64,000 bases of DNA from Negaprion brevirostris (Eukaryota). The stretch lies in the NCBI GenBank assembly GCA_030324005.1, contig JARDVH010000084.1:93050417-93114416 (forward strand). Reading direction: 5' to 3'. Position 1 is the stretch's first letter. Each line of letters opens with the position of its first letter. This document shows, piece after piece, positions 30,001 to 60,000 of this stretch. Made by a program: the position numbers.

Positions 30001-33000
30001 AACTAAAGCTATGCCCGTCTTTTTCAACACAAATGGCACGTTGTTAAACAAGACACGCATGCGTTCTTGTCCAAGGTATCAGAAATGATGGCCTGGGAAC
30101 TGATGATAACCAGTGATTATTCAGCCTTGTCATATTCAATAAATAACTTTTCCTGGACAAGGAACTGATGGTAACCAGTAATTATTCAGCCTTGTCATAC
30201 TCAATGCATAGCCTTTCCTGGACAAGGAACTCCTTGTTCCTCAATAGCACCTGATGCTTCCGGGCTAGTTCTCTACTTGCTTCAAAATAGCGAAGAATGA
30301 CAGATTCCAACAAGATCATACCTATTAAAAGCATCAGTAACGTCACTCGAAAGAATGCATATGACTTTAGCTATCCAAAGAGCCTCCAAAAAGCCTACAT
30401 AGGCATGGTGAATCAAATTTTCCGAGCGAGGTCAGTATGTGTATGCTTTTATAAGAGCCGTGAAGGAATTAAGATGTAAAATTGAAGCACACGTTGTAGT
30501 GTACAAACATTTACTGGTAACGACCAACCTCCCTTGCAATAGACAAATAAGCTAAATATACAAGATTTTGAGGCAAAATTTAAGGACAAGAGAAACATGC
30601 AAACAGGAATATGTGTAAAAAATCTGAGACAAAATAAACTGTTCTTGAAAATAAAATGGACAGACAAGCAAACAATTAAATCGACGTAAGTCGGATAAGG
30701 GCGATAACTTCCATTCCCTAACCCTCAGGCCTTAGTGTTGGAAAGAGGAAGCGCTGAGAGATTAAACTGATACATTAAGAAGAGCACGATAATGTTTTGT
30801 TGTTAAACCAGAGAGGCTGTTGTCTTGTTCTTCTTTGTAAGTGTTAATCGTGTAATGGCACATCACTGGTGCCAATTGAAATAACTTGTCAGATGCATGT
30901 GAGCCTTCAAAACATTCCCTTCAATTATAAATGAGTCTCCAATCGTAAGAGTGCTTCTCATACAAGGCCAGAATCCGGAGTGTGAGTAAGTCTGGCAATA
31001 CTCATAACATACACAGATGAGATTGCCTGACTGGGTAGGTAATCATTACCTCAATCATGCAGCTAATACTCCAAGGGACCATACTCATTGTTGTCAGTAC
31101 ACCTACGCTGGTCTAATCTGATTTCGGTTAAGGAAGGCGTCGATGCGAAATTCTTTCTCTTCAAAGTGTTTCAATGGCCACTCGTCACCCATCTGTTTCC
31201 TTCCCCACAACCTGCTGAGCATCAATAACCCTTGTTATTTTAAAGTACAAAATTGCATGGAGATATACAATCGGAATAAAAGTGGCCAATGTCAGAACCT
31301 CTCTACGGTCCAAGTAATTTTGACATGTCTTCGCATCTCCTGCCTCCCCATGAGGGTCATTGCTGCATGTCACGTTCGATCAGCTGTTGGTCAAATGCGA
31401 CCCTATCTTCGCCAAGTGATAGTATGTCAATGTTGATTTACAATTCAGGAGCACTTGTAAAATCAAGGCAAAACAACAAAAAAAAGAAAGTTGCATTTAA
31501 TTTGGCTTACGGGCTCTTTGCAGGTCATCTTTTAGTCTCTTTATATCTGACGGAGGAAACAAGAATTATATCTTCAGTTGCACACGAGTATTTATGTGGC
31601 AAGGTACCTGAGGAAAAGGTATTTGCTGCATCGTCCGAAATAAATAATACAAAAGTTATCATGTTGCATATAACTTACTGCCATACTGTAAATGAAAAAT
31701 AATTGATCAATATATGTCCGACTTTCTTCCAACACATATTATTCGGTCACGAAATATTAGCATTAATATCTATAATTATTAGACTGAATCTGCTCTAAAA
31801 CACTTAAGGCATCAGTAAACGAAATAGCATCATGTAGAATTAAATTGATTTTATAATTCATGAATAACATATTTCAAAATCAGCATGTGAACACTGGCAT
31901 AAGTTGCCAAACCTATCAGATTTCAAAGCAAAATATTACCTTCAGGTCTGATGTCTTTTGTTCAATTGCATCAGTGNNNNNNNNNNNNNNNNNNNNNNNN
32001 NNNNNNNNNNNNNNNNNNNNNNNNNNNNNNNNNNNNNNNNNNNNNTGTTTTATGTAATGTAATGTAGAATGCCCGACGCATCTTTCTTCGATATATTGAC
32101 GTTACTCAGAGCGTTCACATCCATTCCCTGACTTCAATATCAGTCTTGTCCTCCTCCTTAGTAAAGGACTCATTACCAGTCTCACTCACTTTCTGTGGCT
32201 TCCCGCATAAATTCCCTCCGTCATGGATGAGTGGGCCTATTTTTTCTCCTGCTCCTATTGTATACGATACTGCATGATTTTCATCTAATCATATCTCCAC
32301 TTTCCTGTTTTTTCCCCATAGCCCTTTACCCCGCTTTTGATCATATTCCTTTGCTGTATTGTTCATTGAACTGAAACTTTGAGGGATCAATCTCAACAAC
32401 CAAAAATAAAACAGATGTCCAACGAAGTGCGAGTTAAGTAGATTGGCCAATGTAATGTTTCCCCTTCGTGCCCTAAGATGATTATATTGGAGGTATTAGC
32501 GGGTAAAATATGGAGGGATATGGGGGTAGGGCTTGGGTGGAATTGTGGTCGGTGCAGACTCGATGGGCCGAAGACCACATTCTGCACTGTAGCGTTCTAT
32601 GATTCTATGATCCCATCGAAAAGTAACTCGTTTGTTTAGCATATTCTTTCTCTTGCAACTAAATGCTACATAAATGGCTTAATGGAACATATTGCAATAA
32701 AAAACTGGAGGACTCCAATGCGTATTTAAATTTTTTTTTGGCATGATCCACCACATTTGTTTTCATTCTATTTTGGACGTCATCAATACGTTTTTGTTAT
32801 TCCATGAAACCTTCAATACTTTATTTTTTGTCTCCTTCCATTTCCTTTTTGCATCAGCAAAGAAGGAGGATGTACAGCTTGCGATTGCCATAGTGAAATG
32901 CCATGTATTTCTTTTTACACTTGCAAAATTGTGCCATCACATGCAGAAACTTCACAGTAGAAATTCAAAATGGTGTTGCATGGACGCTTGGCGCGAGATT

Positions 33001-57000: not shown

Positions 57001-60000
57001 TGTGACGAGTGAGCCGAGGCCGGAAAGGAAGGAGAGTGCTTGAAAACGATTAAACAGTTCCGGCCTCATCACGAAATACTGCTCATTTTAAAACTCAATG
57101 GTAACTCGTTGTCGCAATTATCTTCTTGCCGCGACTTGCTCACGGCAGCTTCGGATGTGCTTCAGTCGACTTGCAATAAACCAAGAGGGCGGAACGTGCC
57201 TGTTGACGATGGTCGCTATAATTTGTATATTCCCTGCGGATAATGACGGGCTGGGCAATAACATCCGAGATTCANNNNNNNNNNNNNNNNNNNNNNNNNN
57301 NNNNNNNNATAGCTTAGAGAACAGGGTCAGCAGGCATACAAAAAAAAGAACGATGACTGTTATCTATGCTGCTAATTCTGCATGACACTACGTACAAGTG
57401 AAGTAGTCGTCAGATGACAGCGGTATTATTTTTAATAAAGACGGGTGAGCGTCGTTACATCTGTCAATCGGTGCTCCGCTTGATAGGTTGATCGACTTGG
57501 AGACGGGGGGAAGGTGGCGTAGGGATTAATGAGGGCGCGTTTAATCGAAAAGCAGCCTTGTGACAAAATCGTCCTGGCTCTTGGGGCGAAGCTTCAGTGT
57601 CTTCTGGCATGCCACACGCGCACTGCTTCCAAGCAGCAGTCACGTCTGGAGTTCTGCTTGGGGGACGAGTGAGGCCGAGGACGTTCAGACGTGATCGGAG
57701 AGCGCATTAGCTTGGGCCCGATAAGGGGAAAAATGAAAATGAGTCTGACCAGCATCCAGAATGCTGCTTTCGATTCCTCTGGGAAGCTAATCCAGAGGCG
57801 GGCAGAGTTTGCTGAGCAGTCTGAAAGGGATGCGGAGATGTTGTTATCACTGCAATCATTCCAAGTTTCCCACACCAAAGCTGTCTCTAAATCTGCGGGA
57901 GCACCCTGACCAACGTCGCAGTTCACTGAAACGTTTATTTTATGTCTATTTCACAGGACAGCAACGAATGCGCGGCGCAATGTGTTGCATGCACTGAGGA
58001 ATCTTAAAATGGAAATTACATGAATTGCAAGATAAAATCCTTCTAAGTAAAAATCCATCCTCTAACAAAGATACTGAATGTTATAAGAAGAGCTGATATT
58101 CAATTTCCATTCTTTGTCCTTAAGTACCTCTTTCTTTATATTTCAGATCGTCTTCTGTTGTGGTAAAACGAAGAACATTTTAAGGTTTGTGTCATGTGTG
58201 TTTGACAGTAATTAAATAATAATTTGCCCAGTACGTTAGGTGAGCTGAAGCATTCGATGTTTCACTGAAATGGCATTGTTACCTAAAATGATACTAACAG
58301 AAATGCACTGCTTTGCTTGACCTTGTACCGAGACGTAATGAAGTTCATGATCATACATATTTTTCAGTTTGTTGTGGGTAGTTTCTCAGGGTACAATTTC
58401 ATCAAAGTAAACTATCCGCAAAGTTGGTGAGAAAGGGAGTCCATCGATGATAACGTTAGACTCATTCGACAACCACGTCACTTTGTCCTTATATATTTAA
58501 ATTAACCGTCTCGCCACCACAGCTTTTTAAGAGTGTTCGACTAATCACGGTAAAGCAAAATACTGGGGATGTTGAAACCTGAAAGAAAAAACAACTTTAA
58601 TGTTGGAAAATCTGAGAAGCTCAGACAGTATCTGTGGAGAGAACTAAACTTGAGAATCTTCATGACCCTTTGTCAGGGACTGCTTAAGCTGCATTAAAGC
58701 AGCAAATCGGCTTAGGTGGGCCATCAGACTTGATTGATTGCTGCGCAGGTTTGTATTTCAATTCACAGCAGATATGTGTAAACCATATTTTAGGTGGCAT
58801 GGGAATACCACAGATTATTTATTTATTTATCGGTGTCACCAGTAGGCTTACATGACCACTGCAATGATTTTCAGTTACTGTGAAACTTCGGGATTTGGTG
58901 AATAGTGTTTCTTGAAGAATGAGGGATGTTCAACTTTACCAGAAAGTCGGAAAGAAGGAGCAGGAGACAACAAGAAATCAGGTTGGCAGGCAGTAAATAA
59001 ATGAACAGTGATGGTGAAGTTTATGTTTTACACTCACTTGGGCGGTTTTTTTTTTAATCGAGCATCGTGTAATGTTTGCACTGTGTAAATTAATAGCTTG
59101 ACTGGTTAAATTATTTACATAACGACTATCAGTCATTGAACAAAGAAGTATTTGCCAATTAAAAGACTGTTGAAATGATTGGACAACCGACTTGGTGAGA
59201 CCCACTGAACACAGCAACAATCGACAGGTGCATCCTGTACAGAAAATGTTCCCATCGGAATGGATCAGATCGAAATCAAAATTAGGAGATTTTTTTTTTT
59301 ACTGCAATGTATAATGCAGACATCATATGATATTGAGAGTCATCTGTAAACTTCAGTGATGAACAGCCAAATTTCAGTTGCTACATTCTGCTTTCCCCCA
59401 AAGGACGGAAAATGGGGCATCCTGACCAAAAAAAAGCGCATAATTTAGATATTCTCTACAAAAAAGCAGGCACGTGTTCTCAAGCAGAATCACAAAATAA
59501 TAACATAGAACGATCTTCAAAAAATAACTTGTTATGACAGTCGTGGTTCTTTTTATCAAGGTTACCAAGATAAGTTAGGTGATCCCAGTTGACGATCCTC
59601 GTGGATAAATGCAATGGTGCCGTTATTTCGCAAGGTGGGGGTACACTTCAAGTTTACTTCATGTTAACTAGCAACGTTTATATCGTCAATTATACCCGCT
59701 ACGAAACAATGGTGCCTTCGTAGAACATATTGATTTAGATGGGAAAGTAACAAGCTCCAGTTCCGATAAATCTGGGCGCCCAACAACCATACTTTCATAG
59801 CCTGGAAATCATTATGTCCTCCTTATACTGCGTTCATTGTGTGTTATCNNNNNNNNNNNNNNNNNNNNNNNNNNNNNNNNNNCCAATCGTTTTCTCAAAG
59901 ATAAAGCATTATTAAATGCTTCTTGGATGCCCAATTTTCCAACGTCCGCTGAAATCCGTATTTATTTTGCACATGGTTATTTTTCCTTGTGGGTTGTTCT

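What the first reader, a model, noticed from the sequence alone, without database searches (positions are those of the whole stretch)
31330..59180. Coiled-coil elongation by tandem triplication of a whole intron+exon module
Seen: three collinear units whose introns still align, each supplying one 27-nt exon and (where assembled) one 36-nt exon. Downstream modules (6764-25281) show no intron similarity that I could see beyond the splice flanks, so they are older. Exons in the young units keep frame, length and splice sites while neighbouring intron sequence carries many indels. Inference: polarised growth of the array at its 5' end with purifying selection on the microexons; 63 coding nt are added per 7-12 kb duplicated.
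[Added by the scan's program, not by the reader: the finding's places include an assembly gap (unread letters, written N; its length is only estimated) at 31977 to 32045, 36573 to 36582, 39735 to 39834, 43345 to 44015, 46879 to 46978, 50354 to 50363. Whether the letters on both sides are continuous or in frame is not known: test that first.]
Basis: partly seen in the sequence, partly recalled or inferred. Interest (0 to 1): 0.72.

Follow-up and report, generated by a model that had tools for sequence, protein, structure and literature searches.

The report
Triplicated microexon block in coiled-coil gene
About 28 kb inside one minus-strand gene is an old three-fold tandem copy of a block of intron plus tiny exons that most likely lengthens a charged helical rod, which is a well-known way for repeat proteins to grow.

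Summary
Window 31361-59185 consists of three head-to-tail, collinear units: A 31361-39271, B 39854-46210 and C 46607-59185. Their non-coding sequence still aligns, at 76% identity for A-B and 65% for A-C and B-C. The gene is on the minus strand. Each unit carries a 27-nt phase 1-1 exon. B's two counterparts fall where assembly gaps lie. No exon touches a gap.

The divergence rules out an assembly artefact and shows the copies are old, with tree ((A,B),C). The unit sizes differ because of later LINE insertions.

Selection is clear only for the 27-nt exon and its splice sites: 0 of 1540 other windows are as conserved. The 30- and 36-nt exons are no better conserved than the surrounding intron. 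"Polarised 5' growth" cannot be judged, because the window ends 4.8 kb upstream.

The exon peptides show a charged heptad pattern, so a coiled-coil rod is likely. This is a tidy new example of a known process.

The parts
46607..59185 (-). Unit C, the 5'-most copy on the gene strand, 12.6 kb. It holds the 27-, 30- and 36-nt exons and a C-specific insertion of about 4.2 kb.
   Evidence: Limits come from BLAST with word size 7. Aligned intron identity is 65.0% to A and 65.6% to B.
39854..46210 (-). Unit B, middle copy, as far as it is assembled. Only its 27-nt exon is visible. Its 3' part is hidden by, or lost at, the gap 39735-39834.
   Evidence: B-C and A-B chains. Homology runs right up to the gap edges at 39854, 43344 and 44018.
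31361..39271 (-). Unit A, the 3'-most copy, 7.9 kb. It holds the 27-, 30- and 36-nt exons and an A-specific LINE.
   Evidence: Aligned intron identity to B is 75.7%.
58128..58154 (-). 27-nt exon of unit C, phase 1-1. The whole codons read DDLKYKER.
   Evidence: A profile built from the old modules alone finds it at E 9e-9.
56403..56432 (-). 30-nt exon-like site of unit C, phase 1-1, with tttcag acceptor and gtgagt donor. The whole codons read LQRLQDQLK.
Evidence: E 0.0017; old-36 profile, E 0.026.
46765..46800 (-). 36-nt exon of unit C, phase 1-1. The whole codons read LPKLKDDVRRA.
   Evidence: It lies 78 nt from the gap 46879-46978.
45344..45370 (-). 27-nt exon of unit B, phase 1-1. The whole codons read EDVRYKER.
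   Evidence: The old-module profile finds it at E 8e-8.
43345..44015 (.). Assembly gap where unit B's counterpart of the 30-nt exon is expected by collinearity. The exon is not observed.
   Evidence: B 43344 matches C 56181 and B 44018 matches A 36864. C's 30-nt exon lies between those points.
39735..39834 (.). Assembly gap where unit B's 36-nt exon and about 1.4 kb of intron would have to lie if B is complete. The exon is not observed.
   Evidence: B 39854 matches C 48033. Nothing assembled in B matches C 46607-48033.
38389..38415 (-). 27-nt exon of unit A, phase 1-1. The whole codons read EDVKCKER.
   Evidence: It sits at the centre of the most conserved 57-nt window of the three-way alignment.
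36614..36643 (-). 30-nt exon-like site of unit A, phase 1-1. The whole codons read IQKLKDQLG.
   Evidence: E 7e-7; old-36 profile, E 8e-4. It lies 31 nt from the gap 36573-36582.
31511..31546 (-). 36-nt exon of unit A, phase 1-1. The whole codons read IKRLKDDLQRA. Its last base is C, where the other exons have G.
46217..46606 (-). LINE-tail-like element that fills the C|B junction. Its 3' portion is repeated at 39281-39435 at the 5' edge of unit A.
   Evidence: 59% identity to 33272-33665; 79% to 39281-39435. One search shows that 33401-33613 translates as a LINE ORF2 tail.
34860..36342 (+). LINE fragment (reverse transcriptase) present only in unit A.
   Evidence: RVT_1 at 35133-35839 on the + strand. 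B has no counterpart.
50901..55109 (-). Insertion of about 4.2 kb present only in unit C, with LINE reverse-transcriptase pieces in the opposite orientation to the LINE in A.
   Evidence: B 42202-42271 (68 nt) spans the same place. RT matches at 51104-52240 and 53814-54047.
6764..25281 (-). Three older two-exon modules (27-nt exons 25255-25281, 17889-17915, 11088-11114; 36-nt exons 24456-24491, 16412-16447, 10666-10701) followed by a 26-nt exon at 6764-6789 that ends in phase 0.
   Evidence: The profile built from the young 27-nt exons finds them at E 3.6e-7, 2.6e-5, 0.051 and 0.0075.

Best explanation
The window lies inside one minus-strand gene whose visible coding part is an array of microexons. 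All of them are phase 1-1 except the last.

The basic module is a 27-nt exon plus a 36-nt-type exon. Together with the two split codons this makes 21 residues, or three heptads, of a strongly charged amphipathic helix, most likely a coiled-coil rod.

Two successive tandem duplications copied a block of about 6-8 kb, introns included. The first split C from the ancestor of A and B; the second split A from B. This produced the three units at 31361-59185. The second event started inside a LINE tail that already sat at the first junction. Later LINE insertions then inflated A and, still more, C.

Because every exon ends in phase 1, on G or C, each copy adds residues without disturbing the frame. 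Each unit adds 21 residues if the 30-nt exon is skipped and 31 if it is used. Any exon could also be skipped without a frameshift.

Shown: the triplication, its order, the exon anatomy and the conservation of the 27-nt exon's splice sites. Inferred: actual use of the exons, the coiled-coil fold and the duplication mechanism (unequal exchange or replication slippage within introns).
For: - COLLINEAR UNITS. The three direct units give BLAST E-values from 0 to 1e-20. Aligned intron identity is A-B 1718/2269, A-C 1929/2969 and B-C 1297/1978, which gives ((A,B),C).
- EXON FRAME. All 7 visible exons of the units keep AG/GT, their length and an open phase-1 frame. The first two and last bases of all 14 array exons exclude a stop at any junction.
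- SPLICE-FLANK CONSERVATION. Summed over the exons compared, flank identity (20 nt upstream plus 10 nt downstream) is 29/30, 76/88 and 28/29 against 65-76% for intron; Fisher p is 0.003 to 7e-6. The 27-nt exon with its flanks is the best of 1541 windows.
- COMMON ORIGIN OF THE ARRAY. The old-module profile finds the three young 27-nt exons at E 9e-9 to 6e-6, with no other site below E 0.1.
- HEPTAD PATTERN. In 7 aligned 36/30-type exon peptides, column 1 is I/L/V in 7 of 7, column 4 is L in 7 of 7, column 8 is L/V in 7 of 7, and column 11 is A in 5 of the 5 that reach it. The other columns are polar or charged.
- SUBSTITUTION PATTERN. For A-C, the synonymous proportion is 0.45 and the non-synonymous 0.23.
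- LATER INSERTIONS. The LINE copies in A and C lie in opposite orientation and B lacks both.
Against: - There are no transcript data, so the use of any exon is unproven.
- The 36-nt and 30-nt exons are not better conserved than neighbouring intron: 49 of 453 and 100 of 2130 windows reach their scores.
- The synonymous versus non-synonymous contrast is only marginal (one-sided p 0.066).
- The absence of indels in the exons is expected by chance with P 0.15-0.62.
- C's 36-nt exon has a proline at its second whole codon. Position 18 of the 21-residue module, a core 'd' place, is Lys in 6 of 6 27-nt exons.
- With the 30-nt exon included, the module is 31 residues and breaks strict heptad phase.
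- B's 30- and 36-nt exons are not seen.
- The gene is unnamed, and no coiled-coil predictor or fold was run.
Confidence: 0.72

Rival explanations
1. Only the 27-nt exons of the three units are functional. The young 36-nt and 30-nt sites are neutral relics (pseudo-exons) that still happen to look intact, so each unit adds 9 residues or fewer.
For: - The 36-nt exon with its flanks is no more conserved than intron (49 of 453 windows reach it; donor flank 6/10).
- The same holds for the 30-nt exon alone (393 of 2242 windows).
- C's 36-nt exon has a proline at its second whole codon.
- A's 36-nt exon ends in C where the other array exons end in G.
Against: - All four sites keep AG, GT, equal length and an open phase-1 frame at 26-28% nucleotide divergence.
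- The donor flank of the 30-nt exon is 10/10 identical, matched by only 39 of 2382 windows.
- Their changes are mostly conservative (I/L, K/R, L/V).
- A 27-nt exon alone (9 residues) would break the heptad phase that the 21-residue module keeps.
Confidence: 0.2
2. The encoded segment is not a coiled coil. It is a charged single alpha-helix (ER/K type) or a disordered charged linker, and duplication tunes its length.
For: Charged residues are very frequent: 5-6 of the 8 whole codons in the 27-nt exons and 5-6 of 11 in the 36-nt exons. An invariant Lys sits where a core 'd' residue would be.
Against: Aliphatic residues are fixed at spacing 1-4-8-11 in 7 of 7 36/30-type exons. The third whole codon of the 27-nt exons is V or L in 5 of 6. 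This gives 5 of 6 apolar core places per 21 residues, which an ER/K helix does not need. The ER/K definition used here is recalled, not tested.
Confidence: 0.15
3. The three units are an assembly or scaffolding artefact: haplotypes or repeat copies placed in tandem by mistake.
For: The scaffold is fragmented, with 17 gaps in 64 kb. Two gaps sit exactly where B's exons are expected.
Against: - The copies differ by 24-35% in aligned columns and by dozens of indels, far beyond allelic or collapsed-repeat differences.
- Each unit has private LINE insertions.
- The order of homologous blocks is the same in all three units across separately assembled contigs.
Confidence: 0.03
4. The units are copies of a mobile or satellite-like element that happens to contain exon-like pieces, rather than a duplication of gene sequence.
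For: A LINE-tail-like element sits at the C|B junction and at A's 5' edge.
Against: - The copies are strictly tandem, in one orientation, and in register with an array of homologous exons that continues downstream in unrelated introns.
- No further copy of the unit occurs elsewhere in the window.
- No transposon protein domain lies in the shared parts.
- Other places in this genome could not be searched.
Confidence: 0.04

Closest known systems
Nebulin triplicate region (NEB TRI, exons 82-89, 90-97, 98-105)
   Same: An intragenic block of several exons together with their introns is repeated three times in tandem. It lengthens a rod-like repeat protein in whole structural modules (PMC9109913 abstract; PMC6087456 abstract in the listing).
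   Different: The NEB copies are described as highly identical and copy-number variable. Here the copies are 65-76% identical, so they are old and unlikely to recombine now. The exons here are 27-36 nt, not about 100-nt nebulin modules. The 27-nt exons show a [S/D/E]-[D/E]-x-[K/R]-Y-K look in 3 of 6, reminiscent of the nebulin SDxxYK motif as I recall it. However, the module is 21 residues, not about 35, and no nebulin model could be run on such short pieces.
Titin PEVK segmental duplication (exons 172-180, 181-189, 190-198)
   Same: A block of small exons is repeated three times inside a gene for an extensible or rod-like protein region that is heavily alternatively spliced (PMC9142044, passages read).
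   Different: The titin block has nine exons encoding P/E/V/K-rich sequence. Here there are two or three exons per block encoding a charged heptad pattern, and the divergence is much higher.
Expansion of protein repeats by tandem duplication of several units at a time (Bjorklund, Ekman, Elofsson 2006)
   Same: The general rule is that repeats often grow by internal tandem duplication of more than one unit, sometimes explained by exon structure (PMC1553488, abstract read).
   Different: That survey concerns Pfam domains. Here the unit is a sub-domain heptad module split over microexons.
CD23 (FCER2) coiled-coil stalk
   Same: An alpha-helical coiled-coil stalk with heptad a/d aliphatic residues whose length differs between species (PMC6791321, passages read). 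I recall, without having seen it in a call, that its 21-residue repeats are each encoded by one 63-nt exon.
   Different: Here the 21-residue module is split into 27 + 36 nt with introns of 0.4-11 kb. No lectin domain or membrane anchor is visible in the window, and no sequence similarity was tested.
Non-fibrillar collagen exons (multiples of 9 nt: 27, 36, 45, 54)
   Same: The same exon lengths and symmetric exons (recalled).
   Different: No Gly-X-Y: none of the 26 stop-free Gly-X-Y runs in the window overlaps an array exon, and the exon peptides lack the Gly period. Not a collagen.
Tandem duplicated, mutually exclusive exons
   Same: Neighbouring homologous exons of one gene arose by tandem exon duplication (PMC9741552, abstract in the listing). 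The 30-nt and 36-nt exons of one unit are homologous to each other.
   Different: Their lengths differ (30 against 36 nt). Both are phase 1-1, so joint inclusion also keeps the frame. Mutually exclusive use is untested.

Membership tests
Intragenic tandem duplication of an exon-plus-intron block | Two or more head-to-tail copies in one orientation that include non-coding sequence | tested here: met
   Three collinear direct units with aligned introns.
Intragenic tandem duplication of an exon-plus-intron block | Copied exons keep splice sites, length and phase, so the reading frame is preserved | tested here: met
   All 7 visible unit exons do. B's other two are hidden in gaps.
Segmental duplication in the strict sense (as in NEB TRI and TTN SD) | Copies highly identical, so that they still misalign and vary in copy number | tested here: not met
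   65-76% identity in aligned columns. 'Highly identical' is the wording of PMC9142044.
Heptad-repeat coiled coil | Apolar residues at a/d spacing (3-4-3-4) with polar or charged residues elsewhere | tested here: met
   Within exons, columns 1, 4, 8 and 11 of 7 aligned 36/30-type peptides fit, and the third whole codon of the 27-nt exons is V or L in 5 of 6. Continuity of the register across exons follows from the 21-residue module length and is inference.
Heptad-repeat coiled coil | Predicted or measured supercoiled oligomer | not tested
   This needs the joined exon model, which was left out. No single exon reaches the 20-30 residue minimum of the tools.
Collagen triple helix | Gly at every third residue in the exons | tested here: not met
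ER/K single alpha-helix | Very high E/K/R content without a conserved apolar seam (definition recalled) | tested here: not met
   A conserved I/L/V, L, L/V, A seam is present.
Nebulin-type repeat | Module of about 35 residues with an SDxxYK motif (recalled) | tested here: not met
   The module length is 21 (or 31) residues from the exon sizes. A Y-K motif occurs in 3 of 6 27-nt exons. The Pfam model is not runnable on 8-residue pieces.
Named gene family of the host gene | Significant sequence match of the protein to a known family | not testable with these tools
   Exon peptides are 8-11 residues. The search for homologous proteins needs 40 and the other tools need 20-30. No larger exon was found in the window. 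The joined model was not searched.

The most novel reading that the evidence does not exclude
The triplicated block is not a copy of the older 21-residue module. It is a distinct three-microexon cassette (27 + 30 + 36 nt, 31 residues: three heptads plus one ten-residue step). If so, the duplication has propagated a rod segment with a regular heptad discontinuity. Alternatively, since every exon is phase 1-1, regulated skipping of the 30-nt and other exons makes a rod whose length and register are tunable in steps of 9-12 residues. Either would be an unusually direct exon-to-heptad mapping for a vertebrate coiled coil.
Probability: 0.15. Interest if true: 0.55.

Novelty: new member of a known kind. 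Interest (0 to 1): 0.3.

Why it matters
This is a clean case in which the building of a helical rod can be read straight from the genome. One two-exon module equals three heptads. The array grew by repeated copying of exons with their introns, and the last two rounds are still visible in the introns.

The case is useful for teaching and for annotation. Gene predictors often miss microexons of 27-36 nt separated by introns of 5-11 kb, and here a 30-nt exon candidate was missed even by a careful reader.

It also warns that an intact frame and intact splice sites in short duplicated exons are weak evidence of selection. Only the 27-nt exon passes a test against its own introns. It does not open a new biological question.

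Tried and rejected
1. Collagen reading of the 27/36-nt exon sizes: rejected, no Gly-X-Y.
2. Naming the gene, by sequence search. 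A profile of the seven 36/30-type exon peptides was sent to the search for homologous proteins and turned down as too short (11 aa, minimum 40).
3. Naming the gene, by larger exons. Pfam on all 124 stop-free frames of 75 aa or more found only reverse-transcriptase pieces (4 frames; one above the curated cut-off) and three unrelated sub-threshold hits. Scans of 1-6800 and 59100-64000 for further exons found nothing convincing.
4. More exons inside the units. Conserved AG..GT pairs open in phase 1 gave only the known 27- and 30-nt exons, a 24-nt variant that uses an acceptor 3 nt downstream, and a few short or hydrophobic candidates, none with the charged heptad pattern (for example 15 nt at 37838-37852 and 48 nt at B 40298-40345). 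I take these as chance.
5. A 27-like relic at 39105-39147 (E 0.006). It has no acceptor and is not shared by B or C, so I do not count it.
6. Unequal exchange between transposon copies flanking the block. The junction element 46217-46606 has no copy just outside the outer limits at 59186 onwards or below 31361, so this is not supported.
7. Rfam found no family. Tandem Repeats Finder found only 30096-30231.
8. Literature. Searches looked for a described coiled-coil gene built of tandem microexons and found none. Those three searches are the only basis for saying I found none in print.
9. ESM Atlas on the ORF at 881-1288 gave a best score of 0.75, below the level of a lead.

The closed metagenome and viral contig collections, and any eukaryotic genome, stayed unchecked.

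Full report
GAPS AND SOURCE

The window has 17 N runs. Nine lie inside 31330-59180; the program's note lists six, and 54727-54784, 55877-55886 and 57275-57308 are the other three. No exon described below touches a gap. The closest are 31 nt (30-nt exon of unit A to 36573-36582) and 78 nt (36-nt exon of unit C to 46879-46978). The reading frame passes from exon to exon by splice phase, so gap lengths do not bear on it.

Continuity across the gaps was tested only through paralogous collinearity, and nothing was filled in:
- The A-C alignment 36429-38804 / 56226-58541 runs across 36573-36582 and 57275-57308.
- B-C alignments run across 50354-50363 and 55877-55886.
- The flanks of 31977-32045, 46879-46978 and 43345-44015 keep collinear offsets.
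- 54727-54784 lies in a C-specific insertion and cannot be tested.
- At 39735-39834 only the upper flank (39854, matching C 48033) has a counterpart. Unit B's equivalent of C 46607-48033 is therefore unassembled or absent.

I do not take the contig for human. The median CpG observed/expected ratio is 0.71, and the repeats are reverse-transcriptase-bearing LINE fragments with their tails.

THE TRIPLICATION

Self-BLAST gives 25 HSPs at E<=1e-10, and the collinear same-strand ones define three direct units.

Identity in aligned non-gap intron columns, from MAFFT alignments around the exons:

| Pair | Identical / aligned | Identity |
|---|---|---|
| A-B | 1718/2269 | 75.7% |
| A-C | 1929/2969 | 65.0% |
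| B-C | 1297/1978 | 65.6% |

There are 40-61 indel events per pair. The tree is therefore ((A,B),C): C split first, then A and B. Jukes-Cantor distances from these numbers are about 0.29 and 0.47 (my arithmetic). At vertebrate neutral rates of the order of 1e-9 per site per year (recalled) this means roughly 1e8 years, so the units are 'young' only relative to the rest of the array. This level of divergence also rules out a false duplication of alleles or collapsed repeats.

WHY THE UNITS DIFFER IN LENGTH

Unit A holds a LINE fragment at 34860-36342 on the plus strand. Unit C holds about 4.2 kb at 50901-55109, with reverse-transcriptase pieces on the minus strand. Unit B has 68 nt at the place of C's insertion and no LINE. 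These are independent insertions made after the duplications.

The C|B junction is filled by a LINE-tail-like element at 46217-46606. Its last 155 nt or so recur at 39281-39435, at the 5' edge of A (79% identity). The second duplication therefore began inside that element. No copy of it lies just outside the outer limits of the block, so exchange between flanking repeats is not supported. The B|A junction itself is obscured by the gap.

THE EXONS

The gene is on the minus strand. A scan for AG-N27-GT and AG-N36-GT with a pyrimidine tract gave these counts:
- Minus strand: 12 candidates of 27 nt and 13 of 36 nt.
- Of the 27-nt candidates, 6 resemble one another.
- Of the 36-nt candidates, 7 resemble another. 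Five of these belong to the array. The other two (57618-57653 and 37889-37924) are homologous intron sites with a stop in phase 1.
- Plus strand: 4 and 8 candidates, none alike.

All array exons are phase 1-1. In the units they are:

| Exon | Unit C | Unit B | Unit A |
|---|---|---|---|
| 27 nt | 58128-58154 | 45344-45370 | 38389-38415 |
| 30 nt (exon-like site) | 56403-56432 | falls in gap 43345-44015 | 36614-36643 |
| 36 nt | 46765-46800 | falls in gap 39735-39834 | 31511-31546 |

Downstream follow three older pairs: 25255-25281 / 24456-24491, 17889-17915 / 16412-16447 and 11088-11114 / 10666-10701. After them comes a 26-nt exon at 6764-6789 that ends in phase 0 and so closes the symmetric array.

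They came from an nhmmer profile of the 36-nt exons, at E 7e-7 (A) and 0.0017 (C). Both have a tttcag acceptor and a gtgagt donor, are open in phase 1-1, and lie about 1.7 kb downstream of the 27-nt exon. B's counterparts of the 30- and 36-nt exons fall in the gaps 43345-44015 and 39735-39834 and are not observed.

Every array exon ends in G or C, and none begins in a way that could complete a stop. Any order of inclusion or skipping therefore stays open.

ONE ARRAY WITH ONE ORIGIN

Leave-group-out profiles avoid circularity:
- A model of the three old 27-nt exons with flanks finds the three young ones at E 9e-9, 8e-8 and 6e-6, and nothing else below E 0.1.
- A model of the young 27-nt exons finds the old ones at 3.6e-7, 2.6e-5 and 0.051, and the 26-nt exon at 0.0075.
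- A model of the old 36-nt exons finds the 30-nt sites (8e-4, 0.026) better than it finds the young 36-nt exons (0.041 for A; C not found at E<=1).

The intron layout points the same way. The intron from the 27-nt exon to the 36-type exon is 0.39-1.4 kb in the old modules and 1.7 kb (27-nt to 30-nt) in the young units. The extra young 36-nt exon sits 5-9.6 kb further on. I therefore read the 30-nt site as the counterpart of the old 36-nt exon, shortened by 6 nt. On that reading each young unit is a three-exon block of 93 nt, not 63.

Beyond the exons and about 20-40 nt of flank, the young units and the older part share only transposon matches. Nine of 34 HSPs are exon-centred, at 40-112 nt.

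SELECTION

The test against the units' own introns gives a mixed answer.

| Feature tested | Other windows with equal or higher identity |
|---|---|
| 27-nt exon + 20 nt upstream + 10 nt downstream (three-way) | 0 of 1540 |
| 27-nt exon alone | 69 of 1637 |
| 30-nt exon + flanks (A-C) | 100 of 2130 |
| 30-nt exon, donor flank (10/10 identical) | 39 of 2382 |
| 36-nt exon + flanks (A-C) | 49 of 453 |
| 36-nt exon alone | 145 of 478 |

- Pooled splice flanks are 86-97% identical against 65-76% for intron (p 0.003 to 7e-6).
- Nei-Gojobori counts, summed exon by exon for A-C, give a synonymous proportion of 0.45 and a non-synonymous proportion of 0.23 (one-sided p 0.066).
- The lack of indels in the exons has chance probability 0.15-0.62.

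Purifying selection is thus shown for the 27-nt exon with its splice sites and is only suggested for the other two. The 27-nt exons are purine-rich and all have GTAC or GTAT donors without G at +5. Part of their conservation may therefore serve splicing rather than the protein. That purine-rich exon sequence acts as a splicing enhancer is recalled knowledge.

WHAT IS ENCODED

Taken one exon at a time, seven aligned 36/30-type peptides show the following:
- Column 1 is I, L or V in 7 of 7.
- Column 4 is L in 7 of 7.
- Column 8 is L or V in 7 of 7.
- Column 11 is A in all 5 that reach it.
- The other columns are almost all K, R, D, E, Q, S or N.

This is a 3-4-3 apolar spacing. The 27-nt exons read [E/D/S]-[D/E/A]-[V/L/S]-[K/R]-[Y/C/A/E]-K-[E/D]-[R/K].

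Counting the two split codons, a 27 + 36 pair is 21 residues, exactly three heptads. The register repeats from module to module with 5 of 6 core places apolar and an invariant Lys at the sixth. That fits a charged two- or three-stranded coiled-coil rod. Each 21-residue module would add about 3 nm (rise per residue recalled).

With the 30-nt exon included, a module is 31 residues: three heptads plus a ten-residue step. That would shift the register once per unit unless the exon is skipped. No coiled-coil predictor or structure prediction was run, because that would require the joined model, which was left out.

WHAT COULD NOT BE DONE

The gene is unnamed. Exon peptides of 8-11 residues are below the minimum of every protein tool. 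No larger exon exists in the window. The spliced model was not joined or searched. Paper supplements were not needed.

COMPARISON AND VERDICT

The process is the one known from the nebulin triplicate region (eight exons repeated three times; PMC9109913 abstract) and the titin PEVK block (nine exons repeated three times; PMC9142044 passages). It also matches the general survey of repeat expansion (PMC1553488 abstract). It differs in the tiny exon size, in the exact exon-pair-to-three-heptads mapping, and in its age: identity is far below that of a present-day segmental duplication.

The claim of polarised growth at the 5' end cannot be judged. Nothing exon-like was found in 59186-64000 and the array may continue beyond the window.

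Noticed in passing
window 881-1288, + strand: A stop-free frame of 136 aa gives weak, sub-threshold matches to five AID/APOBEC-type deaminase models over one stretch (aa 71-125). The best is APOBEC3 at E 0.002, 18.6 bits against a cut-off of 27. It may be a decayed fragment or chance.
   Followed up: partly
window 7174-7258, 33275-33360, 39273-39364, 46220-46304, 48657-48741: A short interspersed element of about 85 nt occurs five times. The copy at 7174-7258 is inverted relative to the others. The copies at 39273-39364 and 46220-46304 are homologous positions of units A and B and form the end of the LINE-tail-like junction element.
   Followed up: partly
window 38413-38418, 45368-45373, 58152-58157 (minus strand): The acceptor of the three young 27-nt exons reads CAG followed by AAG. 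A second AG 3 nt downstream is conserved in all three units and would remove one codon if used.
   Followed up: no
window 30096-30231: The only tandem repeat found by TRF: a 65-nt unit, 2.1 copies, 90% matches, in the intron between unit A and the first older module.
   Followed up: no
window 21211-21986 (minus), 27857-29043 (plus): Further LINE reverse-transcriptase fragments lie in the older introns. 21474-21986 is the only frame above the Pfam RVT_1 cut-off (66.3 bits). The stretch 26001-30000 also has a strong purine excess on the plus strand (GC skew 0.24-0.33).
   Followed up: partly
window 6964-7084 / 7259-7379 and 14851-14921 / 15442-15512: Two local direct repeats in older introns, at 77% and 86% identity. 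The first pair straddles the gap 7131-7163. Not examined further.
   Followed up: no
window 37283-37375 (A), with counterparts in B and C: A 93-nt stretch bounded by a conserved AG and GT, free of indels and open in one frame in all three units, encoding a hydrophobic peptide. Its open frame is not the one the phase-1 neighbours need, so it cannot join the array. I take it as a conserved intron patch or chance.
   Followed up: partly
window 6764-6789 (minus strand): The last array exon is 26 nt, not 27, and so ends in phase 0. The repeat array therefore hands over to a differently phased part of the gene below 6764, where no exon was found within the window.
   Followed up: partly
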